Assembly (NCBI GenBank): GCA_027604505.1
Contig: JADIIX010000160.1
Span: forward strand, 1 to 45,534
Source: Gonapodya sp. JEL0774
Lineage: Eukaryota
DNA: 45,534 bases
Reading direction: 5' to 3'
Each line of letters begins with the position of its first letter. Positions within the stretch are counted from its first letter, which is position 1. Positions 4,529-42,043 of the stretch are shown one piece after another. The position numbers and the translations under genes were made by a program. Under the pieces are notes generated by a model. It had not been told where the DNA came from, searched no databases, and saw only the letters and a list, made by a program, of their open reading frames with translations.

Positions 4529-5679
4529 ACTTGTAGGCCAGTATCCCTGGGGCAACATTGCTCTCAGGGACTTGGTGCTTACCAAGTCACACCGGAAGCG
4601 TACGATCACAGCAGGGATGGAACTGTTGATTGCGCATCCTCCAAATGCGGAGCCTTGCGCGCATTGTGCGAAATAGTGCAATTTGATGTCAAGACTAGAG
4701 TCTCAAGCCTGTTAAGTACAGAGAGCGTATGGGGACGGGTGGAGAAGTGAGGGAGGTTGTGAAGTGGTGGTGGAATGGGTGTGGTTGGGAGTACTGGCGG
4801 GCCCCGGGGTGCACCCAGAAGTACAGGTCGGAGCCGCGCGCACACATGCAAGTTTTATATTAGACGCTTGGTTTTTGTATCGGCTTACATTTATACATGA
4901 GACAGTGCCATCGTTCAGCACAGAATCTGCACGATGTGGTTCGTCTGACTTGGTTCCTTTGCACGCCCGGGGCCCGCGGCATTCTTGATCGGTTGAACCA
5001 AAGTCAAGGGAACATGGAAGAGCAGCTGCAAAGCAAATCATGCAGTATCACGGTTGCCACGCAAGCCCCAACCCACCAAGTACACTCACTGCTGAACGCA
5101 CGTATCCTCTCAGCCTCCACTTCAAGCTCATAGTTTACACAGTGATGTATTTGGTCAATGTTACAGCGTGTCGCGCGCTGACTCCATGTGCATCTACTGT
5201 TCCGGTGGAGGTGAACATCACATACAACTCGGTTTGTTCTTGAACGCCACCAAACCCCGAGGTTCGACAGCACAGGCTGTATCCTCTCAAGGTTGGTGAT
5301 ACGTTTGAGCATGTAGCTGGGTACAGAGAAGGTTCTGCCGCCCAGAGAGACACCCTCATGGGTGTTTACCGCAACTTCACTCACCTTCACCAATGTCTGT
5401 TGACTCCACAGTATCCACCGACTACAAAGAGCAGCTTTTCATTATATTTGACATATTCGATTCGAGGCGGTGGTTGGGGAAGCTCTTAGTGCGTGAGAAA
5501 GTTGGCGCGAGAGGTGAGCAGGTCAGCAACCGCGAGACCGAGACCAAGGTTGATTCGTCTGTAAGAGCTGTCGCGGATGTATCACATACACTGCGTAGAG
5601 TTGTAATCGGACTTTCTGAGGGGACGGAGACGAACTGCGTCCAGCACTTGAGATTCAGCATCAGAGCAGTCAAGAACAC
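4475..5679 (-). pseudogene. Fragmented hypothetical Cys-containing coding region
   Basis: Short minus-strand ORFs (5422..5679, 5004..5393, 4712..5041, 4475..4681) convergent with the 3665..4528 ORF. I could not splice them into one frame. Confidence 0.2.
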
Positions 5680-5974
5680 TCACTTTACAACCCAGAGCTG
5701 ATTGGTCCAATTTTCCACCATTTTTCCATCATTCACGCCTCATAATGCAGCTGGAAACCCGCGAGAGGGGTGGATGCCTGTGATAGTAGCCTTTTTGTTA
5801 CGTCAGGGCACTGACAGGGGCGGCGGATGTCTGACATCCGATCACACCAGAAGACCCGCTCCCGTCCATCACGTATCCAGTCCATTCGTTTTCATTGAAT
5901 TCGCCTTGCTTAGTTGGCGAGAAAATGGCTGCGGGGGAATTGGGGATCTGCTGTGACCGTCCTCACCACGTTCC

Positions 5975-8900
5975 ATGCAGCCCCCACCATCCCAGGCACA
6001 AGCATGTACGCCCCCTTCTTTGTCCGACCACTGTTTGAACTCTGCCATCAAAAGAAAATCGCCCATCGCCCCCGCGCAAAATATGGGAGCCTTCTCATCC
6101 AAGACGGAAAATACTCCCACTCCGCTCTCAGACCAGTCCACATCTGGGGGGGTCGAAGATCTCCAAGATGGATTGTGGCAACACCAAGCGGACATTGCCA
6201 AAGACACTGGTCCAGTTGACCAAGAATCCGTAAGTGTTGTGAGGAGTGGCATCAGGATTTCCTCTGCAGCGCGGTTCCTTTCCGCGTCGGGATTACCAAA
6301 TCTCGACAGATCGAATGTCGGTTTGCCACCCGCCTCCCACAACATACACATACATGGCATTGAGATCTAATGTTGCGACACTAAATCGGTCTTGCTTCTG
6401 TTCTCCCTTTAGGCGCTCGAGGATGCAGGACTCGTATCCTCTAACTCCATGACGATGACCAACGTTGCGAACAAGCGAGGTGACAAGCGAAAGGTGCGAT
6501 GTTGACACGCTCTGACCCAAATGGATGTCAAATATCATTCTGTTCTAAACACTGCGGAATCCTGCGTTGTTTTTAGGCGGCCACCTATCCGGAGACACAT
6601 TCGGAGGAGGACGGGCTAATTGTCCCTCCGAAGAGAACTCGAACAACTCCAACGGCCCCTGCATCGACTGTGAGTATAACATCCGGCAAATGTAGAGAAA
6701 CGTACCGGTGGCTGATGGTGAAATCTTGATCAAGTCGCAGGTTGACCTTCGCTCCGTCGATCACCTCCAACGTGGTGACTCCACACAGTCTCCCACGCCG
6801 AGCTCGCGCACATCCCCAACGCACGATCATATGGTTCTTTGGACAGGTGGGCTCTTCCACCAAAGCATACTGGACAAATCTCCGGAAGAGATTGCTAGTG
6901 TGAGTTTGTCTCAGTCGCCCAACGTGAATGACCATCGTGTCTGACTCGTCTTTTGTGGTAAATACAAAGATCGAAACCACCATAAAAGAAGATTCGGCAG
7001 CGTTGATGGAACAGTTTGAAATCAACGCAGCCTCCGCTTCGCAAGGTAATCTGGGGCCTGAATTGGCTGCGGCAGCAGGACTCGAATCTACCACCCTCGC
7101 AAATCGTCGACCCACATCCATGGAGGGTGATCCAAATTCAGCGGCTCAAGCTAGCGACAAGCAAAGGTTGGCTTCCTGCAAAAGCCTCGCGACCATTAAG
7201 CCGTGGAAACCGCCAGCGTACATGGTGCCTTTGGAAATTGAAGATGATCACGAACAAGTGAGCTCTATGCACGTGGTTGTACGCTTCTCTTCACCTCAGC
7301 ACCACGCGCGAACTGAGAAACAAATCATCGTGTCGTACTTGACCTCCGCCCATGTTCCCATCAATTAGTCACCTAGTCTCAACAAAGGCTTGTGGCAACG
7401 TCTCTACCAGAACAGCCTCTACCACTGGACTAAGGATCAAGTTCAATGTGCACTGGCAATTCTCATCGCCACTTTCATGGAATGTCACATCCAGGTGGCA
7501 TTTCTGGGCCTGGTGGACCTTGGCCAAGCGTTAAGAGCGATCGGTGCCGTACACCACAGTGTTCCAGCGGTGAGTTTTTTTTGATACGAGACCCACTTTT
7601 TCACTATCCATATAACAATTTACATGTACACATGACTGTTTCATTCCTAGGCATTGCACGAGACATTTGCTCGTGCTTTCTTGCACCGGTTTTCGGCCAT
7701 GTATGTGTCCATCGAGAGCCCGCAAACAAAGGTACGTGATAGCGTTCAGGTGACCTGCCGGTGGTGTAGATAACTCACCCGAACTTTTACTTTTGCCCTC
7801 GACTGTGATCATCTTATGCCTGATTGACTGCCGCGGATGAATGGGCGGGCGGTTCAGGGTGACTTTTCCACCGAAATTGCCGACAAGTTTTTCCGACCGT
7901 GCAGAGATAGCACCCACAGCAATCGATGTCGGGTACCGCCACGCTTCCTGGCACAGCTCCAGCACATGGAAGTTCTCGCCAAGTACACTGGCAAAATAGA
8001 GGACGAAAGCACCCACACAAAGAAGAAAGTACAAGAACATCGCGTTGCATGGTTCAAATGTCTTTCAAGGGACCAACTCAAACCCTTGATGTATCGTAAT
8101 ATTCTCGTCGAGAAGAAGGATGGCAGTGGTGTCAAGAGATCTCCAAGTCCACTCATGTGAGTTTTCGTGCTGTCGAGGTGTGGACTATGGAGTCCTTTTT
8201 AACGTATCCCACAACGCTTGAATCGAATTGTAAATCTGCACTCCCGCCAGCGCTCGAATCACCCAAGGTCTCGTGTATGACGTTTCCGAAGGCACCGGGG
8301 ACATCTACTTGGAATACGAACAAGAATCTGATCAACACATTAAGGCCCCCATCATTATTTGCTCCGACAAAACCAAGGTCATCAAGACGGATTTCTTTGA
8401 TGTGGATACTCGCATGTTGGTGGGATCAGCAACGTTCAATCTTTTCAACGATGCGCAGATCAGCAGGTAAAGTTCCTTGTAATTTTGAGCTTTTACTGTC
8501 AGAGAACTACGTCATTGATTACTGCGATAATCGATGTTTGCTTCCATTCCTCACGGCATCCTGTACCGATGAAACGGAAATCTCGCCAAGTTACTGTTTG
8601 GCGTTGGAGATGAACTGCCGCAGCAAACCCCATCAGAAACGAGGCCTCTCTCTCCAGGCAACCACTCCTCCAGAGTCGACTTTGACGGCAACCGGAGAGC
8701 ATGCTGTGAGTCGTCGTTGGGAACCTTTTCTCCGGATGATTGGTGCGGAAACATTCCGTAGTCACGATTTCTGGAATTGATCACGTCTTGCACCTGACCC
8801 ACCAGGTGTACACAGATCCCACAACAAACACCACATATGCGTACCTCCCAGAGATCAGTCCTCAGGCCCGCGACTTTTGCGAGAAGGTGGTCACAGAGGC

Positions 8901-9592
8901 TGCAATCAACCTCTCTCTGTATCACGGTAGCGCCATGTTTCCGCCTCAATTGGCATCGCAGTTTGAGCATCATCGCAAGCAAGCGCGCCGTGAAGCCGCA
9001 GATCTTGTGAGTTGCTGCATGGTGGTTGACGATTTTTATTCACAGTGTGCTCTCTTACATCTGCTTGCTTGTTTTCTCTTTTACTTTGATGTTCACGTAT
9101 TCGTTCAAAGGCCGGGACCTTCTTTGGTGCAAAGGACTTCCAAACTGGCTTGCACCTTGATAGTGACGATGCCAGTGTGCTAAGTGCAGGGTACGTAATT
9201 GGCATTTCATTGTTGCTTTCCGATACAAACGTGCACTTTGTTGCGTTCGGTGCTTTTAATTGCATCAACTAAACCATTTTACCCCGTCGTGTACTACCTC
9301 TAGGGCAATATTCTCGATGGATGAGGAGTGGAATGCGACATGTGGTGGCGAGTTCTTTTACTGGTCTCATTTTGTCTTGTTACAGCTTCGAAGGAACATG
9401 TCGTGGGCATGGGTGTCAGCTAAGCTCGCCCACTGCACCGCCCTCATGGACATGCACAATGACTTGCACAAGTGCGTGCAATCAATTTTCAATGTGTTCT
9501 TTGTTTATTTTGTCTGATAGCTCTGACCTCGTTTCTGCAGGTACTCTTGTGCGCTCGCGCTGAACAGGAAAACAATTCAGAACCAAGTTTAA
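5975..9592 (+). CDS. Multi-exon gene with C-terminal TET/JBP-like 2OG-Fe(II) dioxygenase domain
   Basis: Frame-consistent introns 9007-9110, 9191-9303 and 9472-9540 give ...EAADL|AGTFFGAKDFQTGLHLDSDDASVLSAG|AIFSMDEEWNATCGGEFFYWSHFVLLQLRRNMSWAWVSAKLAHCTALMDMHNDLHK|YSCALALNRK. HxD at 9153-9161, distal H at 9431, K-x-S at the R-x-S position. The 5' exons (5975-9006) and the start codon are tentative. Confidence 0.6.
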
Positions 9593-10283
9593 GCCGGCAG
9601 TCACACAAACATGTCGTAGATCATGCGAGATGTTGCAGCAAAGTGACTGTAGTTGGGAGACTTTGGAGTGGAGCGAAATGGCGACAATGCGATCTACCGT
9701 TTTGAGGTCGCGGAAACCGCAGTTGATCCTTTCCGAGGTTCCGTTAGCGAACTTGATGCTGGTCACCTGTGACTGCACATACAGATGTCGTCGGTTTTTA
9801 TTCCACATGGGAGCTTTTTTCGATATGTGCATATCTGAGAACAGGTCAGTTCGTTGTCTGATGTCGGCGCACTGCTACTCGGACAACGATCCAAGAGAAG
9901 GAAGCTCGACTTCCGTGAAGAAGAGCGTACAAACCGAGGAGAGCAAGCACCGATAGAGCCAGAAACGGTAGATACAACAGGTGCTTCCCTCGCTTTTCCC
10001 TGTACGGAATGGTCAACAATGTCATTACGATACGAACTACTAGGCGGCTCTGAATGTTCACAGCCCTGAACCCGCGAAGACTCGCGGTACAATTCCTTCA
10101 TATGTCAAGATATTCAACCATTTTCTGGACATACCGGAGGGGCCTTCAGAGCGTGGTATAAATGCAACTGCCCTCAACCAAATACACGCACAGGACGAAC
10201 AAACGCCACCGAGTACACCGAATACAGACCAAAGCGAGACTCTCACACTGCCTCCACCGCTCACACTCGCATCAAAGCAGATC

Positions 10284-13200
10284 TTGCAAGCTTTGAAAAA
10301 AAGCCTTTTGCGTTTCCTACAAACCCCCGCAACTCACTTCAAGCCGCTGTTGTTGGATGTCGAATATAAAAGTCTTCAGGAACTCGACTTGCCATCCGCC
10401 GTTGATTTGCTCGGATGTACAGCCTTCTTGTACAAAAGCGAGGACGAGGATGACTGCGACCAAAAGCACTGCTTGATCTTGAAGGTAGTGCACTTGTTGA
10501 TGCGGGACGGGACAGCTCACCAAGCAGCTTTCAAAATCCATCTCACAAAGTGTTGGTCCCCTGTATCAGTTGCGTACCGGGCCCCCAGTCGAAACTGCTA
10601 TCCTCACACTCCCCGGCCTCTCCGGTCGTAATCTCGTTCGTACAGGCAAAGTATACGAGAGTAAAGGACGCCTTGCCGATAGGGTGAGGTTCCACTCCCT
10701 CTAGTGTGTCACGTTTTGTCGGAATTTGATCGATATATCTCCCGAATGTTCCGCAGGTCTCGTCCCACCAGACCATTGTCTCAAAGCATTCCAAGCCAGG
10801 AGAAACCCACAACTACGATGTACGAGTTTCTGTGATATCGACTCGAGCTTATTTGTCCAATCAGATGAGCGCTCACTCGGCCTCCTTAAAAGGATACTTT
10901 CCAGCTCACGGACAAGGGTCACAAGGCCCGAAGGGATATCGCTCAAAAGGGTTCAGGTGAGAATCGCACATACCATTTTGATTGCCCTTACACCTACAAT
11001 CTGTTTGCCGACCCAGAAAAGAACCCAGTCTTGCGAGCGATCGAGTAAGTTCCTGAACATGACGGCGGATCACATCACCGATTATTATCTTTTGGCACAT
11101 CTTTCTTACATGATCATTATCACCTTTTGCGTTCGCCCGCAGTGTTGCTTGTGCAGGCGGAGAAACTTGTGAGCGAGCATGTGGCGCTGTCGGGACCTGC
11201 ACTGCAGATTGCGAGATACTTCTCGGCGGGGGGGGTCCTTCTACACCACAAAAGGGGAAATTGTTCTACAAAAATCGCAGCCACAAGTGTCGAGTGAAAT
11301 TGCGGATAATAACGTTTCTGGATGGTGGGTCGATATTCTCAAATGTGTGGCATCGAGCAATGGTCCTCGAAACAAAATGTCTCCCTTGAATCGACTTGTG
11401 GGATTTCTTCGCGGATAGATCCTCAGAACACCTATATCTTTATCCCCACTCTCATACACAACTCCCGTTCTCTCGCTGAGGAATCGGTGCGATCCCGAAG
11501 ACTTAACCCGGCGCAAAAACGTATGGCCATCGAGAACGCCCATCAGACGCCGCTTCAAGTATCCATACTTTCGCAGGGGGATGCGAGACGGATCGGTCAG
11601 CTTAGATACCGACTTAAAAGGGGGGTCAAGGAGGACAAACTTCAGGTGGGTTCCCCAAAGTGCGAGCTCCTCACGTTCTCTTTCGCCGGAAACTTCACTT
11701 CGGATTGTATCACCCGGTACGCTACAGAAACTTGATTCTGCAATTGAACGATTGCGCGAAGAAGGGAAGATCTTGTTTGATTCAGTGGAGACGGTAAACA
11801 AAAGAAGCTTACCCCATCTCGGGTGCTACCGCGCTTTCCCCTAACCATCATTCCCTGTACATGAAAGGGCGTCGGCTCGTTCAAGTATACCGTCGTCTTT
11901 ACTGATCCCTCACTTCTGCGCGCTATTGGCGCAGACACGAAGCGGATCGCCCTTGACGCCAAGCACAAGGTGTCGACCTACGGGGATTTTTTGATTTCGG
12001 CGGTGGTAAAAACCGATCACGGGTTGATTCCAACGTTGTTTTGGTGGGTGAAATTGACAAAAATTCTTACCTGGCTGGTGTGGATATTGAAACAAGATTC
12101 GTTTTGGGCTTCAGTCTCACTTCGGATTTATCTGTGGGTACTGGTGCTATACTCAGTGCTGCTCGAGATCACGTTGGAGAACGGTGAGTCACCCACAAAT
12201 GGTAGACGGTTTCGGCTTTCTACTGATTATCTTCCTTCCAGAACTCCGGAATTGGACAGGGAGGGCTGGAGTCCAGGTTCGGAAGGAGATCCGCCAAGCA
12301 TCTTTCTTTTGAATCTCTTTTTAACATCTTTTCTGGATCCCAGTTATTGTTGTGGATCCACTGCAGCTCGATGCGGTTGTGGAATCTGACCTGAGACCAC
12401 AGATTGACACCTTCCATTACTTTTCCGGTTGGTGAGTGCCCTCCTACTGAAGCGCTCGCCATTGCAAGGATCAAACTTTCGAGACCGAATAGTGATGTCA
12501 GATGCATTTTCTTGAATCAGGCTGCAGTTTCTCAGGTCTGTCGTCCGCAACGAGGAGACTCCCAAAGTTCTCTTGTTGTTTCTGACAGTTAGTGAGTACA
12601 ACCAGTCAAATTTTCGTTGCTTGATTATATTTTCGATTACAGTAACAGACCGTCTGCTGTTTCTTATGGGACAAAACCTTGGCACAAAGAAATGATACTC
12701 TCAGTCTCATCGTCTAAGGATCGATTAGACCTGGCGAAGCAGCTCAGGTTACGCCTGGCGAATACCGAGGGTATATCGGTCGAGCCGTTCATAGATAGGC
12801 TAATCTCGGATTTAAACAGTCAACACACGCCAACCAGAACGGATTCTCTCCATAGCGGCTCCGCAGGTATGTTTCTGTGCATCAGTAAGGCAAGCAGTGG
12901 AGTGGGAGGCTGCTGCCTGAAAGCTGTGTTTTACAGTAGCTGAGATCGGCGTGGCCTGTGTATGGATCATGCTACAACTTACCCTGTTCTTTCAGAGTCG
13001 ATCCACGGCATTGTGACCCAGCTCCTCCCGAAAAAGTTGCACATGATGGAGCCCGACGAGGTCTTGTCGTCGTTCGATCCTATCTTGAAGGTGCGTTCCA
13101 TTCTACGATTCCATTTTTGCATGAAGTGCACTCACCGTCGGCGGGTGAACCCTGAAACACTGCCGACCCACTATCCCGCATCATGGCAGCACTATAAGGC

Positions 13201-14489
13201 ACGGTTAAAGACAAAAACAGTCCCCAGAGTCCCGTCGGAAGTTCTGCGCGTTCTCCATCAGGCCCACATGATGGTGCTTCTGAGCGAGTACAACCAGACA
13301 CCATTGGGCAAACGTCGTCCGCCATCAACTCTCGTGTTCACCAACAAGATGTCCTTGGAAAAATTGCGGTACGATGATTCGTTTAAGCTTGGTGAGAATA
13401 ATGAGCGTGCGGAATGCATCCAAAGTGGTGGTTTTGACGGTTCGCTCCCGGTTGGTGTTTTCTGGTCAACCACTGTTCCTCCTTTTAGCTCGGTACGTTC
13501 GCCAAGAACTCTCTTGCTCGGACACAGAACTTGAGCAGGCGTTTTCACATTTCCAGGATATTTGGGCGTGAGTTTTTCACTTCTGCGAGAGCATGGCAGC
13601 AAAAATCAGCTCAAGAATTACGGAGGTACCTTGTTTCTTACTATTTTTTGCTCATTCTTTTGTTACTTTTTGAAAACAGACTTGTCCCCGGCGGCCCCTA
13701 CCAGACTGCTCGCTCGCCGGATGCGCAACTCACCACTGTCCCTACAACTCAAGTCACGTTCGATCGTGTGACCAAGCGATGTACGTGCTTGGGTTACTTT
13801 TGGAACTGGAGCTCTCTGTGCAAGCACGCCCAGACAGCGGCGATCCTTGAAGACATTGCGGAGGGCAGAACCTCGGCGATGAAAATCAAAGAGAAGGTCG
13901 TGACATGTGAGAATATCAATCGTTTTGTTGCGTTGAGGATGAAGTCACTTCATCCAGGGAATCGCCCAAATCTGATTGACTTTTTGTTCTTATTTGAAAC
14001 AGATTTTCGTCACAGAGAACGCAAGCAGGTGTGTTGAGATCTCTTTGTATCGGCACAAAAGGACCAAGGAAAGGGTTATTGGTCTGAGTATCTGTGATGG
14101 CTTTAGGAACCCGCCATCTTGCGGAACCCAAAGATCGTTTCCTCTGATAATGGCACTGTTTGGGATGAAGTCAGTCGGTGAGTACCACACCAGCCACTCT
14201 TTCACTTTAGTGGTGCCGTGATGTTCTCCACCCACTTATCATTTGTTTCCGCGCATTCGCAGTCTTTACGCGCGATAGTGAGTCCAATTCAGTCCCGGAA
14301 TCTTTGAAATGTCTGAGAGTAAATTGGACACGCCTGTGTAATCTCCACTTCATCATCCTTCCAAGCGGTGATGCTGTGTTTTACTCGTGGGGTCTTCAGG
14401 AGACCGTCGACCGAGAAAACGGGGTGGTGCTCCACGCTTTTGAGACTTCTCTTCCCCGGAAGGGCGGCGCTACCGTGAAGGGAAGGTGA
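10284..14489 (+). mobile_element. Intron-rich Mutator-like (MULE) DDE transposase-type gene with N-terminal Cys/His Zn domain and C-terminal SWIM finger, probably degenerate
   Basis: CAGGETCERACGAVGTCTADC...HKCRVK...IHN (11150-11462). First-Asp-like motif IALDAKHKV (D at 11955), then FVLGFSLTSD and RCIFLNQAAV (CxxH-like position, H absent). SWIM C-x-C-x10-C-x-H (CTCLGYFWNWSSLCKH, 13780-13827). Second D and the E were not identified, no TIRs were seen, and boundaries are approximate. Confidence 0.55.
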
Positions 14490-15382
14490 GAATCCGACAG
14501 GATGAGATTATTGGACGAATAATCTTAATTCGTACGATCTTCTCTGTCACGCACCTATTAATTTGCACACCGTTTGGTGATTCTTTTGTTTTCGCCTCTC
14601 TCCACTCCACCAGGCCAAAGAATCGTGTACCTGGTCTAGCTGGGTTCCCTGAGTCGGTTAGGTGACAATTAAAACCTATTTCTTTTAGGTCCACTACCTG
14701 CGGAATATGGCGCACAGTTATATACTCTAGGAGTCTATTTCTGTCATCTGGGTAATTATTGTTCATGGAGACAGGCCCAAAAATTATTGCCGTGAATCGG
14801 CATAATTGGTTTGCATTCGGTGATTATATCGATACTTGCTCATGGCGACAAACTGCGAGCGCAGTTTGAACTAAATTAAGCCCCTATAATTGAGTGTGAG
14901 CACTATGTATGCAAGGAGAGGGGGACGTCTTCTTAGCCCTGAGTCATGAGTGATGGGACGTACCCCTCGCGCTAATTGATCTCCAAAGCCCATTTCCACG
15001 GCACGTGAAACCGGAGCAATTAAACATTTCAAATCGACAACCCGCTACTCAAAACGTTACAAAAAGCACTACTAAAGCCAGTGTCATGCACATATTCATA
15101 TTTGGGGTGTCATCCCACCTGAGAGGTGGAACTTCAATCATCTCGCAATCGAATCATTCCATTTCACACAAACCTTAGTCATCCCAATTCACCTTATTCA
15201 ACTGCTGTATCAAGGTAAAGGTGTCTCGTTTCTTCTTGTGCACGTTCTCCCGCCCAACCAAAAGCACCTATAAGCCCACCAAGCAAAAATTGGACACAAC
15301 AAAATGCATACCACAAACACATGGTGAGATACATGCAGGTTGCAAGGAGGCATTCGGTGAGTTTTAGAATCCTACTAGTTCA

Positions 15383-28501: not shown

Positions 28502-28800
28502 TGTCAGGGCGTGGCCTGACAAGGTATTCTGGATCAGATGACACAGATCGGACGCTGCGACGTCAATAGAGTGAAAGANNNNNNNNNNAACTTAAATATA
28601 TTTCGATTCATATCATACAAATTGCACAGTTCACAATCGAACTATAGTCCAGTCCATTAGTAGACTTCTCACTCTGTCCCCGTCACTTTGACCTTGTACT
28701 AACCCTCGCTTCCTGTGACCTCGGGTCACATAAACACTAACACTTGGCAGACACACTTACACACACTCAGTCCCTCATAGCGTAGACAACCCCCTTAACA
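28502..28800 (+). repeat. 5' LTR (interrupted by scaffold gap)
   Basis: 28502-28578 matches 32533-32609 and 28589-28800 matches 32771-32982, identical by eye. Confidence 0.9.
28579..28588. other. Assembly gap (10 N); about 161 bp of LTR is missing
   Basis: N run. The corresponding 3' LTR segment is 32610-32770. Confidence 0.95.
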
Positions 28801-28802
28801 TC

Positions 28803-28816
28803 TGGTGCTCCCCCTA
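28803..28816 (+). promoter_or_regulatory. Putative tRNA primer-binding site
   Basis: TGGTGCTCCCCCTA begins 2 nt after the LTR end; TGG is complementary to tRNA CCA. The cognate tRNA was not determined. Confidence 0.65.
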
Positions 28817-29332
28817 AGTCGAAACTTGTTCCGCGGCATCTTTCTCTAGCTTATCTCTCGGGTACTCTCACAACGGCTCGTCCCTTTGACCCCTTCGGTG
28901 TGGCTGACACATCACACCCAAACATCATCAACGATCTCTCATACTCCCTCGCTCAATCATTTCATACAATTTTATCAGAACATCCATCAATAAATCTCAG
29001 CTCATTTCACTCGGAACCTGAAGTTGCCCCTCCAACCCTCGATCCTTGTCCCTGAACGACCCTGTAGTGCGCCTCCGCAGATTACACTTCCAGCAGACTA
29101 TCTAGCCACAATCGACACATCGTTTTCAACTCTCGTTCATCTCCCTCGGCGATACTCCCCTATTCCAGTGCCACCTCTTCTGTCATCACCACCCCTTCCC
29201 CCATCACCAACACCAGGCTCACATCTCGCAACCCCACTCATAGTAGCCTCCGACATCACCATTGAGCTCGCAGCAGACCCAGCACGCTCCCTATTAACTC
29301 TTTCAAGTCGCACAGCTCACACATCTCCTGCA

Positions 29333-30403
29333 ATGGCCACCGGTACTCCAGTTGCACCAGTCTTGACGTTCCCCCGTGATGTGAAAGAGCTCAAGTTCCC
29401 TCTCGCAGACTTTGACCCAAAGGATCCAATTGGAAGCTTAACTCGTTACAATACGTTCATAGATAATGTTAAGAATCATATCAAGTTGAAAGATATTCGC
29501 GAGTCAAATCAACGGATCGCAGCCATCGCTCACAACATCCCCGCTACTGTCCGCAACCGAATGCCCACGACAACTCTCGGAGATAACCCAGACTGGGACG
29601 ACTATCTTGAAGCTCTTGATGGTGCTTACTTCCCTCGTAACTCCGCTCTGTGGCATCAAACTCTCGAGCAAATGATTTGGGACCCAACACAACGCTTCTC
29701 CAATCACGTTATGGATTACAAAACAATCGCTCATCGCGCTGGAATCATCAATCTTTACAACCCGGCAACTTTAGACACAGATCTTCGCAATCAACATCTT
29801 TGGTACTATTTTTGGAAAGCTTTACCCCCGGCACTTCAAATGTATATGTCCTTATGTGGAATAAAAACTCTCGCTGACCTGACGGACGATAAAATTAGTG
29901 CAATTGAGGAAAACCCGCATCTCTCTCCGTCGCCACTCCTACTGTTTCCGGCTAAACACAACCCGAGCACACACCTTGCCTCCGTTCAGGCATCTGATCC
30001 CATCGCGACTCTCACTCAAACCTTAGACGAACGCTTCGCTAGAATAGAGAAAGCATTCGAGAATATGCATGTCACAATCGCAGCCTTACAAACTCCCTCG
30101 GCTCACTCCCCTGGCAATCCCCCACGTTACGCACAACAACACAATTTCCGCGTGCCATTCACTCAAAACAACTCTCACAACAATGGACAATTCTTGCAAC
30201 AGAACAATGACAAAGCTTACGATGGAGAATTCAATTGTTATACATGCGATCAGCCTGGACACACCTCGCGCAACTGCCCATATAAGAATCAAATTGTAGC
30301 GCTCGCAAGACAGTTGCAGAATATACAGAATGCTTCAGCTGCAAACGCTCTTCCTGCCCCCGATAATCTTGGTACAGATGGAAACCCCCCGAGAAACAAT
30401 TAG
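29333..30403 (+). CDS. gag: Retrotransposon Gag with CCHC zinc knuckle
   Basis: ORF 29024..30403 with first ATG at 29333. CYTCDQPGHTSRNC fits C-x2-C-x4-H-x4-C. Capsid-like helical region (WDDYLEALDGAYFP). Confidence 0.85.
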   Translation: MATGTPVAPVLTFPRDVKELKFPLADFDPKDPIGSLTRYNTFIDNVKNHIKLKDIRESNQRIAAIAHNIPATVRNRMPTTTLGDNPDWDDYLEALDGAYFPRNSALWHQTLEQMIWDPTQRFSNHVMDYKTIAHRAGIINLYNPATLDTDLRNQHLWYYFWKALPPALQMYMSLCGIKTLADLTDDKISAIEENPHLSPSPLLLFPAKHNPSTHLASVQASDPIATLTQTLDERFARIEKAFENMHVTIAALQTPSAHSPGNPPRYAQQHNFRVPFTQNNSHNNGQFLQQNNDKAYDGEFNCYTCDQPGHTSRNCPYKNQIVALARQLQNIQNASAANALPAPDNLGTDGNPPRNN

Positions 30404-32532
30404 AACACTGTTGAGACTAAGAACCTCCATCACTTTTCACGGGCAATAACACACAAACATGGACACTGAAACACTTCATTCACTATCTCGGACTTTGAAC
30501 TTACGTTGGCTTCTCCTCTGGATACACATCTGGCTAACACCTCTCCCCCTCTCGGAACACCTGGTAATACACAGCTCCCCACCCACTTAGCATGCTCTCA
30601 CAGACACGCAGCTCTTCCCTGGAAATTCGAATCGTTGTAGTTGGATAATTGACAATCTAGACACACCCCTGTACACGACACACACACAAACACTTGGGCA
30701 CGCAAAACCCATCACCCGCTCTCTCACGATACGAACGACGTAGTAGAAACATTATCAGCTGTAGAAACAACAGCTAAAAAATCTCCCCCGGCATCTCTCA
30801 CTCTCAAAATTACATTCTGGTTCCCGCATGGTTCATCTCTTGCTCACCCTTCGATAGTCAATCCCCACTTCATCACTCCCCACGAATGCTTCCTCAACAC
30901 CTTTGGAAAATCGATCAATCTCTGCTGGACAGACAACTGATGCGATTTTTTCTCCAGCGTCTGCCGTTGCTGTGTGCGCGCCACAGTGGATGATCAGATG
31001 CTCGGGGAATCTCTCCCCCGGCAGACTCCTTGAACAGCTCTGGTATCACACCTTCCGACTCGTCAGATGTTACGTTCTCTATACTTCCTCGCTGGCAGAA
31101 GCATGGCCGATTCAGCAAGAGGACTGCAGCCTTTACTGCTGCGACTCGGCATGATGTTCTTGCGGCACATCGCAACACCGCTTCGCAGATTTACAATCTT
31201 GGGCAGAAAATTTCTGAATTGCACTTTACACGACATCACTACTCTTCTCGTTACTTCGCACGCTCGTTTGACACACTGTGTAGACTTTGGTTCTTTGGAT
31301 GGACTTTTGGCCGAACACCTGACCCCGCATTGTCCTGAAGATCACTTCGTCCCTGAACTCTTTTCCGACACCATCGCACAAACAGACTCCCGTGAAGAAT
31401 GACAAACTAGAACACCGCTTAAAAAAAAAAGTTGATTTGATGGAACTTGACACCACTATGAAAAATCCTCCCGACACAAACTCCCTCACAATTCCCCTTA
31501 CGATTCCACTCTCACAACCCACAACCCGAACGCAGCAAACACACACAACCACCTCTCCCCATTCAAAAGAAAGTGAAATGCTCGAATTACAATTGGCTTG
31601 AAGAATCAAAAACACCCGGAAGACACACTCTCATAATTTGGACATCTCCACAAAAAGCACAACTTTGAAGTAGAAAACACTGGAAAACAGTCGATAATAA
31701 CGCTACAAAGTCGCTCATTGATTATACATACTTGAAGAAGATGGAAAATGGAAAATTGTAGATCAAAACACTGTTAGAAGACCAACACAAACGCATAAAC
31801 CACCATCGCTTGAAACAGAAAGCACGCAAACCATCCCACTTGGAACAGAATACGCTTGTAGAAACTCGCTACGAAATATGGAAGAACTGGCGGAACAGAT
31901 TTGACCAAACCCCCGCGAACACACGCGCACCTGGACGATCCCGCTCCCCTACAAACGCTCTAAAACCCTCACACCTGCAGAACGACTGAAAAGCTTTAGA
32001 CTTAAAAGACCATATTCACATCCACAGACATTGAAAGCCCCGCGCAAGATGTTCATCACTCCCCCATAACGCCGCAGCTATTCGTTGACACTCCAATACT
32101 CGCCCAACACCTCAGAATCACACATTCACACATGCACACGCAGAACCATAGCTATAGAACCTCTTTGTCGTCCTACTCTCTCTTGCTTATGATACGTAGC
32201 CATACACGATGCGCCCTTTACGCTCCTCACATCACCCTCGACCCTCGCACACATCCCTTCCCCTGAGTCGCAAACACACTTTCTCCTTCCTACATCACAA
32301 TCAACGTGGCTCATGATTGATAAAAGCCTCGACATGCAATAGATTTCATCCTCTCCTCCTTTCAACCGGGGGATGGGATCTGGTCCTTCTCGGCCCTGAT
32401 CAATTCGAAGCTATGATTCACAAACACCCCTAAACTCGGAGATAGACAATGACATGACATTTTGATACATCATACGTACTTTTTTGCTTTTCTTTGGAGT
32501 GGTATTGGCGATTCTCTTCACCGGTGGAGTAG

Positions 32533-32982
32533 TGTCAGGGCGTGGCCTGACAAGGTATTCTGGATCAGATGACACAGATCGGACGCTGCGACGTCAATAG
32601 AGTGAAAGATCGTATTTTTGTAGTTTGAAAAGGCGTTACAGAACAATTTTAGAAGTTCTACAAGAGACGGAATAGATGGAAGTTGGAGAATAAAGGCCAC
32701 AGCGCTCCTCATGACCAAAGCACGAAATGGACTATAAAAACCGTAGCTTCAGCTTAGCTTAGATTTCTACAACTTAAATATATTTCGATTCATATCATAC
32801 AAATTGCACAGTTCACAATCGAACTATAGTCCAGTCCATTAGTAGACTTCTCACTCTGTCCCCGTCACTTTGACCTTGTACTAACCCTCGCTTCCTGTGA
32901 CCTCGGGTCACATAAACACTAACACTTGGCAGACACACTTACACACACTCAGTCCCTCATAGCGTAGACAACCCCCTTAACA
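32533..32982 (+). repeat. 3' LTR (450 bp)
   Basis: TGTCAGGG...CCCCTTAACA imperfect inverted ends. TATAAAAA at 32733. TGTGACC-TCG-GGTCACA hairpin at 32896-32912. Preceded by a weak purine-rich tract (GGTGGAGTAG). Confidence 0.92.
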
Positions 32983-34054
32983 TGGTATTGACACCGCGCA
33001 CCGGGCCTGGGCGGTGTGACCACATCTCACAATGGGGGGTGCTCTCATTGCATGAGCGCTGGCAAGTTTGATTCGGAGCGCGGAAAATTTCTTGTAGGCC
33101 TTCTAATTTTGATTATACAATGCCCATCCATCGGCCATCCACCGTCAAAAATGCCCACCCTCCCCCCCACCTTCGCCTACCCGCACACCATATGTGCCTT
33201 TGGCCGACACCGATCCAACCAATCAAATCTATCCAACCACCCGGCCAGCTGTTGAACCCACTTCCCTCAAACTCGGGGGCCGGGGGCAGCGGGGGTGGCG
33301 GTGAGGGCGACACTGTGGGCGGTGGTTGGTGGCGCACGTTCCACGGGTAGGAATGGGGTAAGCGGAGGGTGCTGCACCGGCGTGTGCGTGCCGGGGGTGC
33401 TGGGAGCGGGGGAAGGAGCGGGTTGGGGGGGAGGAGCAGTGGGCCTGCGTGTGTGTTGTGGCAGAATGTGGCGGGGTGCGGATACGTGGGTCGGTGGTTG
33501 AAAGGGGGGGTCGTGGAGCACCCCGCCTCCCAACCTCGTACTCACCACACGCAACGAAAACCGGTCCTACAGGGATTAACTGTGCTTGTTCTTTGCATGT
33601 TCTGGTGGTGGGGTGGCGGCCGGAGGGGTGGGTGGTGATGGGGATGGTGGGGGAAGGGGAAGCGCGGTGAAGGGGGAAATGTGGCAAAGTGGGAAAGATG
33701 AAGAAGAGGGACCGAGGGTGAGAAAAGAGCAAAGGACCGTCGCGCGCCGTGAGTCAGGAGTACGAGAGAAGGTGGGGGGCGGAGGGGGGGAAGGGGGGGG
33801 AAGGTGGGACCGGGGGCGCAGGTGAGCGCTGGTCATGAAAGATGGAAAACAAGAACAGGGCAGAAACAGCCCAGGGGCCCACCCGCCATTGTGCGTGTGC
33901 CCGTTGGCTCACCCTTCACCACCCGCCGTATCTGCAAGGCCACACATCCTACACAAATTACAGTGTTGTACGTCCCCACACGTCCACGCTGACCCGACAG
34001 GGCGAGACGTGACAGACAGGCGAGAGGCAAGAGCCTCCAGTTCTGGCCAGGAGG

Positions 34055-39522: not shown

Positions 39523-42043
39523 TCACATTTTGTTCAACCATCCGATCGCATCTGCGTCCCCCTGGTCCGCAGATCTCCTGTACCACTTCGCCGCTTCCTC
39601 CAGGTCCATTGCCACACCCCAGCCGTTCTCGAAGCACCGGCCCAGATTGTTCTGTCCGTACTTGTCCCCCTGGTCTGCAGATCTGCGGTACCAGTTCGCC
39701 GCTTCCGCCAGGTCCTTTGCCACGCCCAGTCCACATAGTAGCAGCACCCGATTTCGTTTTGAGCGTCCGCGTTCCCGTCTTGAGCGTTAAAGTATATTAT
39801 TCTCGTAGTGTCGTTCGGTGGAAGCGCAAAAATTTCAGGGTTAGTGGGTCTCAGTGGAGCACTGGTCGAGATGGGTGGAGTTTTCGCAGAACGAGCCTCC
39901 GTCCATACAGTCTCCTCGCGTGTACCTGACACGTACGTTGAATCGTTTCTATGCTGTGGGTTCAGTACTTGAAGGGGACCTGGTTGAGGTTTGACGTCGA
40001 TCGTCTCTGCAGCAGGAGGGAGCTGTCGGCTCTTCACGGTCTGCTCCGCTTCGGCCTGTCGCGCCCTCTCAGCAGCTTCGTATTGCGCCCGCATTTCTTC
40101 GCGAATGCGCAGCTCGGTACTCAGTCGCTCCGCTTCACTCTTTCGCTCTTGTTCTCGTCTCTCCGCTTCGTATTTCGCCTTCCAGTGCGCCTCAGCTTCC
40201 CGGTGCTTGGCAGCATATTCCTCGTGCAGCCGGTCCTCCGTCTGTTTGATAATACGACGGGCATCTCGCACACTCTGAGGGTCATTCAAGTGCTGGAAAT
40301 GTTGCTTGAGATACGCCACAATGTCAGAAAACGTGGATCGACTATTTGGGCTCGCGTCCCAACACCGCCTCACAAGGGCTTTGACAGAATCTGGCATCTG
40401 AGTCGTACTCGGCCGCTCATCTACCGGCACGTCCGTGTACTCATCTATATCGGGCCGTGTCCCGTGCTTGACGTGTACCTGCACAAGCACGTCGTCGTAC
40501 ACCGCGCAGTACGGTACCTGCAGCGTGTACATCTCGTACACGGTCATGGCAAAGGCGTACACGTCCGTCTGCTCGGACACATTGGGAATCATCCCAAATA
40601 TCTCTGGAGCCCACCACCGCAGCGTCCCCGGTCTCTTGACTTTGGAGAGGATCGACACGCGGGTGCTGACGGTCGCAAACCCAAAATCCATAACGAGCGC
40701 GTTCCCAAGGTCGTCCACCAGCACATTGAACCCCTTGAGGTCGCAGTGCAGGATCCCCCTGCTGTGGAGATACTGCATTGCACATGCGATGTCGAACATC
40801 AGCTCCACTCGGTCGGCACGCGGATGGCTCCGAAGGTACGAAATCAAGTTGCCATTGCGTATGTATGGCGAAACCATAAACGGAGGTGCCGCCAACAGGT
40901 TGGCCCCGAACAGAGGCAGAATGTTCGGGTGGTGGAGCCCGTACCACCGCTTCACCTCGTTGCGGAAAAGCTGTGCAGTGCAATCCAACAATCAATGACA
41001 ACGCCATTTTCAAAAGCAAACGTGTGCAGAGCTCTCACCGCCACCAACCTCTCATCCGGATGGTCCACAAGCAAGTCTTTGATGGCTACTCGACGCGTGC
41101 CGCTCCACGTGCCAAAGTACACTTTGCCGTATCCACCGGAGTCAAACGGGCGAGGATCCCGAACTACCTCCGTCGCAGGAATGTGCCACGGATCTTCCAC
41201 GAGATCATGCCCCGAAATCCGAACCAGCGACAGGTGCGCTTTGGCCAGAAGGTCCCGTTCTCGCGGAGTCCCTGCGCCGACACGAAGTGTCGCCTGGATG
41301 GTGCGCTGCACCTCCGGAACTTGGGGCATTTCAAGCTCCAGGGTTGCGAGCACGGTGGCGTCGTTGTTCACCACTTGTTCAAGAACTTCCTGCGAAGCCG
41401 ACTCCACTACGCGGAGGTCGTTGTCGTTTTCTCCGCGCCATTTTTCAATGTCCAACACGACTGCGAGCTGAAGGGAAGCCGAATGCCAAAACGAGTAGGA
41501 TCCACCACTCGCCCTCCCCTAGACGTACCTGGAAATCTGTGACAACACCCTGGAGTCTGTTGCCGTACTCCTCCAGTTCTTTGCGCGTGCGGCTGCTGTT
41601 GATGATACGGAACCACTTCGGTTTGCCTTTGACGAGCTCCAGGTAGTCGGCAATTTCCTTGAGGAATCTGTTTGAACGGGGACACCACCGCGTCGACTTT
41701 CGACTGGATATGGCGAGAATATACGACCCTCGGCCACTCACGCCGTAAACTCTACAGCGTGGACTCTGAGGGGCGGGCTCAGCTTTTTGCCACCAACCTC
41801 CATCCGGTCTGCCATGGCTTTGACGAGCAAGGCGCAGCGGCTGGCGAGACGCACGACGAGCTCCTTGTTGTCCTTGAAGTCCTTGGCCACAGTGTAGACG
41901 GCGCGGAGAGCTTCAGCGCAGGCTCCAAACACGGGCACGGACGTCACTTTGGCGATGACATCTAGCACGGCCGCGACGCCATCAAGCAGATTTTCTCCCA
42001 CTGCTGAATCCACTGCCTTGAAAATGCCTGCCCGCGCCTGCAT
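39523..42043 (-). CDS. MLKL-NTD-like helical domain + TKL-family protein kinase + coiled coil + SEL1 repeats (frameshift in the SEL1 region)
   Basis: ATG at 42043; frame-consistent introns 41668-41741, 41468-41528 and 40971-41038. Kinase motifs SGGYGKV, VAIK, HCDLKGFN, DFG, GTLRWWAPE, DVYAF. N-terminal VPVFGACAEALRAVYTVAKDFKDNKELVVRLASRC...RLQGVVTDFQ. SEL1 repeats GLGVAKDLAEAANWYRRSADQG are reached only through a 1-nt shift near 39735. Confidence 0.85.

What the first reader, a model, noticed from the sequence alone, without database searches (positions are those of the whole stretch)
8740..9592. Hidden TET/JBP-like 2OG-Fe(II) dioxygenase split over four exons
Seen: the domain is invisible in the ORF track, but three canonical introns join GLHLDSDD (HxD), GGEFFY, W-x-S-x3-AHCT (distal His) and HKYSCAL in frame. 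Known: this order is the DSBH metal-binding signature of TET/JBP enzymes that oxidise 5mC or T; some fungal members act on 6mA. The 2OG-binding R-x-S position reads K-Y-S. Inference: it could be an element-encoded anti-silencing or self-marking enzyme with a variant co-substrate site.
Basis: partly seen in the sequence, partly recalled or inferred. Interest (0 to 1): 0.75.

Follow-up and report, generated by a model that had tools for sequence, protein, structure and literature searches.

The report
Spliced, divergent dioxygenase-like gene in Gonapodya
This is a real multi-exon fungal gene that likely encodes a very divergent iron/2-oxoglutarate dioxygenase, possibly of the TET type that oxidises methylated DNA bases; it lies just upstream of a likely Mutator-type transposase gene, but neither the enzyme family nor a transposon could be proven.

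Summary
Three canonical GT..AG introns join 8806-9006, 9111-9190, 9304-9471 and 9541-9592 in frame. The joined 166-residue peptide is collinear across all four exons with a Gonapodya prolifera protein (38% identity).

The window is a contig of Gonapodya sp. JEL0774. The public model HDU93_002259 already contains the first three exons. It replaces the last exon, skips its stop codon and fuses the gene to the next one.

The family is tiny: three members among 1.84 billion representatives, all from Gonapodya.

The dioxygenase superfamily assignment has moderate support. The HxD, GG, His and Arg/Lys-x-Ser/Thr motifs occur in the expected order, and known phage 2OG oxygenases and the family rank each other at the top among about 1,020 decoys.

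The TET-specific assignment rests on weaker evidence:
- a sub-threshold hit of the paralogue to PF20515 "Tet-like" (E 0.0054);
- protein-language-model neighbours;
- an HxDxxD motif.

Pfam does not detect the window's own protein. Both structure predictions failed, and profile-profile comparisons could not separate TET from other dioxygenases.

The Lys at the Arg position is private to this copy; both homologues keep Arg. The downstream gene looks MULE/SWIM-like, but no terminal repeats were found.

The parts
7954..8157 (+). Upstream exon of the public model. Similarity to the paralogue P0005 begins here, at about P0001 residue 453.
   Evidence: tblastn map of P0001. BLASTP of P0005 residues 162-255 against P0001 residues 453-552: 24% identity, pairwise E 1e-4.
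8251..8466 (+). Exon of the conserved module, probably the N-terminal beta-rich part. The donor is GTAAAG.
   Evidence: identical to the public model. Aligns to P0005.
8591..8705 (+). Exon of the conserved module. AAG acceptor, GTGAGT donor.
   Evidence: Aligns to the N-terminus of the G. prolifera homologue P0003 (shared TPPE..L.A.G.H pattern).
8806..9006 (+). The donor is GTGAGT.
   Evidence: Collinear with P0003 residues 35-100.
9111..9190 (+). HxD at 9153-9161 (H-L-D) and Asp at His+5 at 9168-9170.
   Evidence: P0003 has H-V-D-D-A-D at the aligned place.
9304..9471 (+). GG at 9344-9349 and the distal His at 9431-9433 (A-H-C-T).
   Evidence: In the 1.84-billion-protein library it hits P0003 at E 2.3e-7 and P0005 at E 7.3e-5. 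18 columns are invariant among the three proteins.
9541..9592 (+). The public model lacks this exon.
   Evidence: aligns to R-F-T-L-A-F-A-L-N-K of P0003; the public model diverges after residue 739.
10044..14662 (+). Neighbouring multi-exon gene, fused to the dioxygenase-like gene in the public model and likely a MULE/Mutator-type transposase with a SWIM-like zinc finger. Candidate acidic motifs lie at 11949-11969 and 12343-12360. A CxCx10CxH motif lies at 13780-13827.
   Evidence: Map of P0001. ESM Atlas score 0.95 with 173 shared features to MULE/ZSWIM clusters. Motif places. No Pfam hit.

Best explanation
Window 8806-9592 holds the last four exons of a real spliced gene (at least six exons, about 8251-9592) of Gonapodya sp. 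JEL0774 that likely encodes a very divergent Fe(II)/2-oxoglutarate dioxygenase, possibly of the TET/JBP kind, which would oxidise a methylated DNA base.

Shown:
- the exon structure;
- its conservation in a second species;
- the order H-x-D, G-G, His, (Arg/Lys)-x-(Ser/Thr);
- the fact that the public annotation replaces the last exon and fuses the gene to its neighbour.

Inferred:
- His 9153-9155, Asp 9159-9161 and His 9431-9433 bind iron.
- The Lys at the last splice junction takes the place of the Arg that holds 2-oxoglutarate.
- The Asp five residues after the first His would contact the N4 amino group of 5-methylcytosine, as in NgTet1 and CMD1. This would favour 5mC over 6mA.

This copy is the most divergent of the three known family members and alone carries Lys for Arg, so it may be a weakened or inactive enzyme. 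It lies 450 bases upstream of a likely MULE/SWIM transposase gene on the same strand. It is not shown that the two genes move together.
For: Gene model:
- All five introns are GT..AG.
- The spliced peptide is 38% identical over 164 residues to G. prolifera KXS11775.1, across every junction and the last exon.
- A second exon further upstream is also conserved with that protein.

Superfamily:
- In a local unfiltered hmmsearch against 1,031 sequences (1,019 six-frame decoys plus 12 phage references), the family profile ranks two cyanophage 2OG-FeII_Oxy_3 proteins first and second, and Tet_JBP phage proteins fourth and eighth.
- In the reverse direction, the Oxy_3 profile ranks P0003 first and P0005 second of 1,022. 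The actinophage TET profile ranks P0003 second, directly after the phage's own TET gene, which I had not masked.
- hhalign against the Oxy_3 set aligns GG, His and Arg with pairwise E 5e-4 and probability 30.7%.

TET leaning:
- The only Pfam family that any member touches is PF20515, 'Tet-like 2OG-Fe(II) oxygenase'. P0005 scores E 0.075 as a whole protein and E 0.0054, 17.2 bits, on its last 69 residues. The matched part corresponds to exon C and to profile positions 168-209 of 211.
- In the ESM Atlas, P0001 residues 477-740 score 0.94, with 174 shared features to a phage cluster carrying Tet_JBP. 20 of 30 hits fall in that set.
- H-x-D-x-x-D occurs in the window and in P0003. Passages of PMC11040006 and PMC7854593 state that this position is Asn1387 in human TET2, Asp234 in NgTet1 and Asp350 in CMD1, and that it bonds N4 of 5mC. 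In CcTet it is Gly331, which admits 6mA.
- hhalign against both TET sets places HxD on HxD and GG on GG. Against the actinophage set it also places His on His and Arg on Arg, although without significance.
Against: - Pfam finds nothing in the window's own exons, in the whole public protein or in its C-terminal fragment, and nothing in P0003, even at E 10.
- The PF20515 hit is below the curated cut-off (17.2 against 27 bits) and concerns only the paralogue.
- PHROGs gave nothing.
- PDB sequence and profile searches gave only chance-level rows.
- Both AlphaFold2 models are unusable (mean pLDDT 39.9 and 36.9), so no fold was seen.
- hhalign gives lower scores against TET sets (probability 0.5% and 1.4%) than against a non-TET oxygenase set (30.7%). 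The control of Oxy_3 against TET reaches 83.6%, so these small profiles cannot tell dioxygenase families apart.
- In the reverse searches the window's own spliced protein ranks only 9th to 41st, no better than decoys. The marine Tet_JBP profile A11 does not enrich the family at all (ranks 9, 15 and 27).
- By motif position, the aromatic residue at Arg+6 and the His/Arg at Arg+8 that hold the base in TET enzymes are Ala and Asn here.
- In CcTet the conserved Arg385 is essential: R385A abolishes activity. Lys may therefore cripple this copy.
Confidence: 0.5

Rival explanations
1. It is a 2OG-Fe(II) dioxygenase, but not of the TET/JBP kind. It would be a lineage-specific relative of prolyl hydroxylase-like (2OG-FeII_Oxy_3) or other oxygenases acting on a protein or a small molecule. 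The position next to a transposase-like gene would be coincidence.
For: - The only long tblastn matches of P0003 in 50,697 phage records lie on Synechococcus phage genes, one annotated as a 2OG-Fe(II) oxygenase (E 7, residues 107-195). Pfam assigns that gene to PF13640.
- hhalign scores this set higher than the TET sets (28.1 against 16.4 and 19.0).
- The family profile ranks these proteins first and second, above the TET references.
- The Oxy_3 profile gives P0003 its best score (E 0.018 among 1,022).
- The base-stacking aromatic and the His of TET enzymes are not at their motif positions.
Against: - Pfam contains PF13640 and many other oxygenase models, yet the only model touched by any family member is the Tet-like PF20515.
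- The ESM Atlas neighbours with a family name are all Tet_JBP.
- The HxDxxD motif is the TET pattern.
- The control shows that Oxy_3 and TET phage sets resemble each other more (83.6%) than either resembles this family, so the ranking between them carries little weight.
- About 170 conserved residues precede the HxD motif, as in TET/JBP domains. That comparison is my inference.
Confidence: 0.3
2. The gene is cargo of a Mutator-like (MULE) DNA transposon and serves the element, for example by removing methyl marks from its own DNA.
For: - The next gene on the same strand, 450 bases downstream, resembles MULE/SWIM transposases by protein-language-model features (score 0.95, 173 shared features).
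- That gene has D..D-type motifs and a CxCx10CxH motif.
- Fungal TET/JBP genes are known cargo of 11 lineages of DNA transposons (Kojima 2025, PMC12730594: abstract and sections 1, 3.2.3 and 3.4 read).
Against: - No terminal inverted repeats flank the pair in three searches.
- Pfam's MULE and SWIM models do not hit.
- The only paralogue found in the same genome is 29-46% identical, so it is not a recent copy.
- Copy number could not be measured, because no genome is held and no sequencing run was listed.
- Both genes carry many introns of the host's size, which also fits old host genes or a domesticated transposase.
Confidence: 0.25
3. The protein is not an active enzyme. It would be either a decaying copy or pseudo-enzyme of the family (Lys for Arg, most divergent member), or the motif order is a coincidence in a fold that is not a dioxygenase.
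For: - The window's own protein is not distinguished from decoys by any reference profile (ranks 9-41).
- It alone has Lys at the Arg place.
- No fold could be predicted.
Against: - The frame is open through six exons with intact splice sites.
- All metal-binding residues are kept.
- 18 columns of exon C are invariant across three proteins of two species.
- The two homologues are ranked at the top by two independent oxygenase profiles.
Confidence: 0.15

Closest known systems
Fungal transposon-associated TET/JBP dioxygenases: PU, AG and PE types (Kojima 2025, PMC12730594); KDZ-linked TET/JBP genes of Basidiomycota (Iyer et al. 2014, recalled; paper not held)
   Same: An intron-containing fungal gene with HxD..H..R order beside a DNA-transposase-like gene. 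Like the PE type, it is too divergent for ordinary profile searches; the paper reports HHpred E-values of 1.4 and 19 for the PE type (section 3.2.3).
   Different: - The host is a monoblepharid (Gonapodya). The words Chytridiomycota, Monoblephar-, early-diverging and Mucoromycota do not occur in the paper's text; it reports Pucciniomycetes, Agaricomycetes and Pezizomycetes.
- The neighbour looks MULE-like, and MuDR is not among the 11 lineages listed.
- No transposon ends were found here.
- This gene has HxD, not the HxE of the PE type.
- Family membership itself is not established.
NgTet1, CMD1, human TET2 and CcTet (solved TET enzymes; passages of PMC11040006 and PMC7854593)
   Same: - The facial triad HxD..H.
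- Asp at His+5, as in NgTet1 Asp234 and CMD1 Asp350.
- H-x-T around the distal His, as I recall for TET1-3.
- A basic residue followed by x-Ser/Thr in the last strand.
   Different: - No detectable sequence similarity in PDB searches.
- Lys instead of the conserved Arg in this copy.
- Ala and Asn at the motif positions of the stacking Phe/Tyr and the His/Arg that hold the base.
- The comparison is by motif position only, not by a structure alignment.
Pfam PF20515 (2OG-FeII_Oxy_6, Tet-like 2OG-Fe(II) oxygenase superfamily)
   Same: It is the only Pfam model touched. It matches the paralogue P0005 over the part equivalent to exon C (GG to distal His), at profile positions 168-209 of 211. A genuine phage Tet_JBP protein also hits this model (E 2.9e-4).
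   Different: The score of 17.2 bits is below the 27-bit cut-off. The window's protein and P0003 do not hit at all.
Cyanophage 2OG-FeII_Oxy_3 (PF13640) oxygenases, e.g. Synechococcus phage S-H35 ARW56935.1
   Same: The GG, His and Arg half of the domain aligns (hhalign pairwise E 5e-4). They are mutual top ranks among decoys.
   Different: The HxD half does not align. No Pfam PF13640 hit for any family member. Database-level E-value of 7.
MULE/Mutator transposases with a SWIM finger (PF10551, PF04434; FAR1/ZSWIM relatives), for the neighbouring gene
   Same: ESM Atlas neighbours. A CxCxnCxH motif near the C-terminus (SWIM consensus recalled). D-containing motifs in MULE-like order.
   Different: No Pfam hit. 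No terminal inverted repeats. The catalytic residues were not verified.

Membership tests
TET/JBP dioxygenases (Pfam PF12851 Tet_JBP / PF20515 Tet-like) | Significant match to a family profile | tested here: not met
   No Pfam hit for the window's exons, for P0001, for its C-terminal fragment or for P0003. The paralogue P0005 reaches PF20515 only at 17.2 bits, below the 27-bit cut-off (E 0.0054). hhalign against two phage TET sets gave probability 0.5% and 1.4%.
TET/JBP dioxygenases | HxD ... distal His iron-binding triad in this order | tested here: met
   H-L-D at 9153-9161 and His at 9431-9433. The distal His is invariant in the three family members. H-x-D is kept in P0003. The annotated P0005 lacks that stretch.
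TET/JBP dioxygenases | Conserved Arg in the last strand that binds 2-oxoglutarate (CcTet Arg385) | tested here: not met
   The window has Lys (codon split 9470-9471 / 9541). P0003 and P0005 have Arg.
TET/JBP dioxygenases | Asp/Asn at His+5 contacting N4 of 5mC (Gly in the 6mA-active CcTet) | tested here: met
   Asp at 9168-9170; P0003 also has Asp. The rule is taken from passages of PMC11040006 and PMC7854593. The match is by motif position only.
TET/JBP dioxygenases | Aromatic residue at Arg+6 and His/Arg at Arg+8 that hold the flipped base | tested here: not met
   Ala and Asn in both the window and P0003; P0003 has Phe at +5. The register is inferred from motifs, not from a structure.
TET/JBP dioxygenases | Double-stranded beta-helix fold closest to solved TET structures | tested here: inconclusive
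   Two AlphaFold2 runs gave mean pLDDT 39.9 and 36.9. No fold search was run on them because the models are meaningless.
TET/JBP dioxygenases | Oxidation of 5mC, T or 6mA in DNA | not testable with these tools
   Needs a biochemical assay.
2OG-Fe(II) oxygenase superfamily (double-stranded beta-helix) | Detectable homology to known members | tested here: inconclusive
   No single significant E-value at database scale. However, known oxygenases take ranks 1, 2, 4 and 8 of 1,031 with the family profile. P0003 and P0005 rank 1 and 2 of 1,022 with the Oxy_3 profile, and 2 and 5 with the TET profile. hhalign pairwise E 5e-4.
TET-carrying DNA transposons of fungi (Kojima 2025) | Terminal inverted repeats and target-site duplications enclosing transposase and TET genes | tested here: not met
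   No convincing inverted repeat flanks 5-15 kb. The best pairs are 31 nt at 71% or 15 nt exact, at chance level.
TET-carrying DNA transposons of fungi (Kojima 2025) | Several copies in the genome | not testable with these tools
   No genome is held for the window and no sequencing run was listed. One copy in the window. One distant paralogue in the protein library.
MULE/Mutator transposase with SWIM finger (neighbouring gene) | Match to PF10551 / PF04434 | tested here: not met
   No Pfam hit for P0001 or for two fragments of it at E 10. The only support is an ESM Atlas lead (0.95) and a CxCx10CxH motif.

The most novel reading that the evidence does not exclude
A Mutator-like transposon of an early-diverging (monoblepharid) fungus carries its own, extremely divergent TET-type DNA demethylase. 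It would be a twelfth transposon lineage with TET cargo and the first outside Dikarya. This would mean that capture of TET genes by DNA transposons is much older or more recurrent in fungi than described, and that a whole TET subfamily has escaped profile-based annotation.
Probability: 0.15. Interest if true: 0.65.

Novelty: new variant of a known kind. Interest (0 to 1): 0.4.

Why it matters
If the family is TET-like, it extends DNA-base oxidases to monoblepharid fungi. In the papers I could read, transposon-linked TET genes are reported only from Basidiomycota and Pezizomycetes. It would also show that profile libraries miss whole subfamilies.

The natural Arg/Lys difference between this copy and its two relatives offers a ready-made test of the co-substrate site.

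In practical terms, the public gene model HDU93_002259 is a chimera of at least two genes. Its dioxygenase-like part should end at 9592.

Tried and rejected
Genome and reads
- No whole genome is held for the window.
- Sequencing runs: none was listed and no RNA holder was listed, so the introns could not be checked against transcripts.

Homologue searches
- Word-indexed searches found only the window's own protein, nothing among 2,103 candidates, and only P0005 among 6,468 candidates. That last search failed to recover P0003, which was in the query alignment, so it was a weak search.
- The exhaustive search with exon C gave 6 proteins at E <= 0.001. I dropped three of them: P0002, P0004 and P0006. 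They match through 4-7 short repeated stretches and are repeat proteins; P0006 is an RCC1-repeat protein.
- Two metagenome scans found no relative.
- Alignment-based locus scans were not run, because the alignments lacked a conserved stretch.

Family and structure searches
- PHROGs gave nothing.
- PDB searches gave only chance-level rows.
- tblastn of P0005 against phages gave only irrelevant rows. In the P0003 search, 6 of 10 records were 40-residue matches to tail proteins.
- A profile search of five phage records with the family alignment found nothing.
- Two AlphaFold2 jobs failed to give a usable model, so no fold search was made.

Transposon and literature
- TIR searches by three methods found nothing.
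- Literature searches for TET/JBP with Gonapodya or with chytrid and transposon found no paper. Searches listed only a paper on CDCA7-HELLS, which mentions Gonapodya once in another context.
- Iyer et al. 2014 is not held.

Alternative splice
- I considered using the second GT (three bases downstream) as the donor of exon C. I rejected it because the resulting frame has no similarity to P0003.
Full report
WHAT THE WINDOW IS

A word-indexed protein search with the first exon found one protein, 99% identical. It is NCBI "hypothetical protein HDU93_002259 [Gonapodya sp. JEL0774]", 1,558 aa, on a contig of 45,534 bases, which is the window's length. The window is therefore a contig of a monoblepharid fungus. 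No whole genome is held for it. This public protein (P0001) maps to 5393-14662 on the + strand in 23 tblastn pieces.

THE OBSERVATION

Reading the sequence and recomputing by script confirms three canonical introns:
- 9006 | GTGAGT ... AAG | 9111 (104 nt)
- 9190 | GTACGT ... TAG | 9304 (113 nt)
- 9471 | GTGCGT ... CAG | 9541 (69 nt)

The four exons add up to 501 nt and read without a stop to the TAA at 9590-9592. The Lys before Y-S is built across the last junction.

This is not a chance reading. An exhaustive HMMER search of 1.84 billion representative proteins with exon C alone gave six proteins at E <= 0.001. One is the window's own protein. Three are repeat proteins that match through 4-7 short stretches; I dropped those (P0002, P0004, P0006). 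The remaining two are true relatives (names):
- P0003 is KXS11775.1 of Gonapodya prolifera JEL478, 213 aa.
- P0005 is HDU93_009789 of the same JEL0774 genome, 377 aa.

The spliced 166-residue peptide aligns to P0003 over 164 residues with 38% identity and only two gap positions. The alignment runs across all three junctions and includes the last exon, where K-Y-S-C-A-L-A-L-N-R-K lies against R-F-T-L-A-F-A-L-N-K-Y (pairwise E 6e-38).

RELATION TO THE PUBLIC MODEL

The conserved module is longer than the finding. Two further exons, 8251-8466 and 8591-8705, belong to it, again with GT..AG introns. The second aligns to the N-terminus of P0003, and the first aligns to P0005.

Of the 276 residues of this six-exon model, the first 259 are identical to P0001 residues 481-739. 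The domain is therefore annotated in public, as a hypothetical protein. The public model differs only at the end. By my reading of the sequence, it uses an acceptor 21 bases upstream (AG at 9518-9519). This changes the frame, passes the stop and runs on into the next gene at 10044. HDU93_002259 is thus most likely a fusion of at least two genes.

Transcripts could not be consulted, because no sequencing run was listed.

WHAT FAMILY IS IT? DIRECT TESTS

- Pfam finds nothing in the single exons. It finds nothing in the whole P0001 at E <= 10, in P0003 at E <= 1, or in C-terminal fragments of P0001 and P0003 at E <= 10.
- PHROGs gives nothing.
- PDB sequence and profile searches give only chance-level rows.
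- Further homologue searches found no more members. The alignment therefore stays at three sequences.
- Both AlphaFold2 runs failed, with mean pLDDT 39.9 for P0003 and 36.9 for P0001 residues 450-739.
- No fold search was made on these models.

EVIDENCE THAT IT IS A 2OG-Fe(II) OXYGENASE

tblastn of P0003 against 50,697 phage records gave 10 records. Four of them (two phages, each held twice) are an 89-residue match covering the stretch from HxD to the last strand, on a Synechococcus phage gene annotated as 2OG-Fe(II) oxygenase (E 7). The other six are 40-residue matches to tail proteins. Pfam assigns the cyanophage gene to PF13640, 2OG-FeII_Oxy_3.

I built three small reference alignments:
- A8, of these proteins.
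- A9, of actinophage TET/JBP homologues seeded from Mycobacterium phage Cooper gene 2. That seed matches Tet_JBP at 26.6-28.2 bits, below the cut-off of 34.9.
- A11, of marine phage Tet_JBP proteins around Nonlabens phage P12024L, which scores 94.3 bits.

In a local hmmsearch without filters, the database held 1,019 six-frame decoys from the window and from phage Cooper, plus 12 references. The family profile ranked the two cyanophage oxygenases first and second, and Tet_JBP proteins fourth and eighth.

In the reverse direction:
- The Oxy_3 profile ranked P0003 first and P0005 second of 1,022.
- The actinophage TET profile ranked P0003 second and P0005 fifth. Its first hit was the phage's own TET gene, which I had failed to mask.
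- The marine Tet_JBP profile A11 did not enrich the family (ranks 9, 15 and 27).
- The window's own spliced protein ranked only 9th to 41st.

hhalign of the family against A8 aligned GG, the distal His and the Arg, with pairwise E 5e-4 and probability 30.7%.

Together with the motif order, this makes a dioxygenase of this superfamily likely; I put it at about 0.8. The window's copy is the most divergent of the three.

EVIDENCE FOR AND AGAINST THE TET/JBP KIND

For:
- The only Pfam model touched by any member is PF20515, "Tet-like 2OG-Fe(II) oxygenase superfamily". P0005 reaches E 0.075 as a whole and E 0.0054 (17.2 bits; cut-off 27) on its last 69 residues. The match covers the part equivalent to exon C and profile positions 168-209 of 211. 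The hypothesis was fixed before the search, so a lone hit to a Tet-like model out of 24,736 models carries more weight than its E-value suggests. A true phage Tet_JBP protein hits the same model at E 2.9e-4.
- The ESM Atlas search with P0001 residues 477-740 scored 0.94. 20 of 30 hits fall in the Tet_JBP set, with 174 shared features. By the tool's own calibration this is a lead, and it was not calibrated on parts of proteins.
- The metal motif reads H-x-D-x-x-D in the window and in P0003. Passages of PMC11040006 and PMC7854593 state that this position is Asn1387 in human TET2, Asp234 in NgTet1 and Asp350 in CMD1, and that it bonds N4 of 5mC. In CcTet it is Gly331, which makes room for 6mA.

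Against:
- hhalign against A9 and A11 gave probabilities of 0.5% and 1.4%. The alignments do place HxD on HxD and GG on GG, and for A9 also His on His and Arg on Arg.
- The control, A8 against A9, reached 83.6%. Known dioxygenase families thus resemble each other more than either resembles this family, and these small profiles cannot decide between them.
- By motif position, the stacking aromatic (Arg+6) and the His/Arg (Arg+8) of TET enzymes are Ala and Asn here.

I put the TET-like reading at about 0.5, and a non-TET oxygenase at about 0.3.

THE LYS

However, P0003 has R-F-T and P0005 has R-Y at the aligned place. The Lys is therefore a private change of the most divergent member, not a family-wide variant co-substrate site. 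In CcTet the equivalent Arg385 is highly conserved, and its change to Ala abolishes activity. Whether Lys is tolerated here is untested.

If the His+5 rule carries over, the Asp predicts 5mC and not 6mA as the preferred base. That step is inference.

IS IT ELEMENT-ENCODED?

The gene that the public model fuses on (10044-14662) has no Pfam hit. Its residues 1085-1490 score 0.95 in the ESM Atlas, with 173 shared features, and the neighbours carry MULE, ZSWIM1-3 RNaseH-like and SWIM families. A CxCx10CxH motif lies at 13780-13827. The neighbour is therefore likely a Mutator-type transposase or a domesticated relative.

Three searches for terminal inverted repeats around the pair found nothing above chance. 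The window holds one copy of the dioxygenase-like gene. The only paralogue known in the genome is 29-46% identical.

Kojima 2025 describes TET/JBP cargo in 11 lineages of DNA transposons in Pucciniomycetes, Agaricomycetes and Pezizomycetes (PMC12730594: abstract and sections 1, 3.2.3 and 3.4 read, plus passages). MuDR appears in that paper only as an example of other epigenetic cargo. The words Chytridiomycota, Monoblephar-, early-diverging and Mucoromycota do not occur in it. My searches for TET/JBP with Gonapodya, or with chytrid and transposon, found no paper.

A MULE carrying a TET-like gene in a monoblepharid would therefore be new. Here it is only an adjacency, and I put it at about 0.25.

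VERDICT

- The dioxygenase reading is likely.
- The TET reading is plausible but unproven.
- The transposon reading and the special co-substrate site are not supported by what could be tested.

It is best described as a new, very divergent variant of a known kind, with moderate interest.

Noticed in passing
window 5393-14662: The public model HDU93_002259 (1,558 aa, about 23 exons) appears to be a chimera. An N-terminal part of unknown nature, the dioxygenase-like module (which has its own stop at 9590-9592) and a MULE/SWIM-like gene are joined through a 10-residue mini-exon that has no counterpart in the G. prolifera homologue.
   Followed up: partly
window 28502-32983: A likely LTR retroelement. 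Two direct repeats are 100% identical: 28502-28578 with 32533-32609, and 28589-28801 with 32771-32983. Their spacing differs by 151 bases, so one LTR has an indel. The element encloses a 469-aa open frame (28994-30403) with a CCHC zinc knuckle (E 4.2e-5). The interior has a strong negative GC skew (about -0.25 to -0.33 over 29-33 kb).
   Followed up: partly
window 42370-44687, - strand: Two adjoining open frames of 360 and 413 aa. The second has a reverse-transcriptase domain (RVT_1, E 6e-9), so this is a second retroelement near the end of the contig.
   Followed up: no
window 39537-40991, - strand: A 485-aa open frame with a protein kinase domain (PK_Tyr_Ser-Thr, E 5.8e-34). A 64-nt direct repeat pair at 39556-39619 and 39664-39727 (89% identical) lies inside it. 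A 509-aa open frame on the opposite strand overlaps it in a region of about 57% GC.
   Followed up: no
L007 (Mycobacterium phage Cooper) 785-1750, and relatives: The phage TET/JBP homologue next to a ParB-like gene is annotated in many actinophage records as 'queuine tRNA-ribosyltransferase'. In others it is called 'oxidoreductase' or 'thymidine hydroxylase'. Pfam gives only Tet_JBP at 25-31 bits, below the cut-off. In Arthrobacter phage Lilmac1015 the next gene is a glycosyltransferase.
   Followed up: no
P0005 (HDU93_009789, other contig of the same genome): The annotated paralogue lacks the stretch holding the HxD motif and stops right after the Arg (..P-R-Y-E). Its gene model is probably also mis-spliced or cut short.
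   Followed up: no
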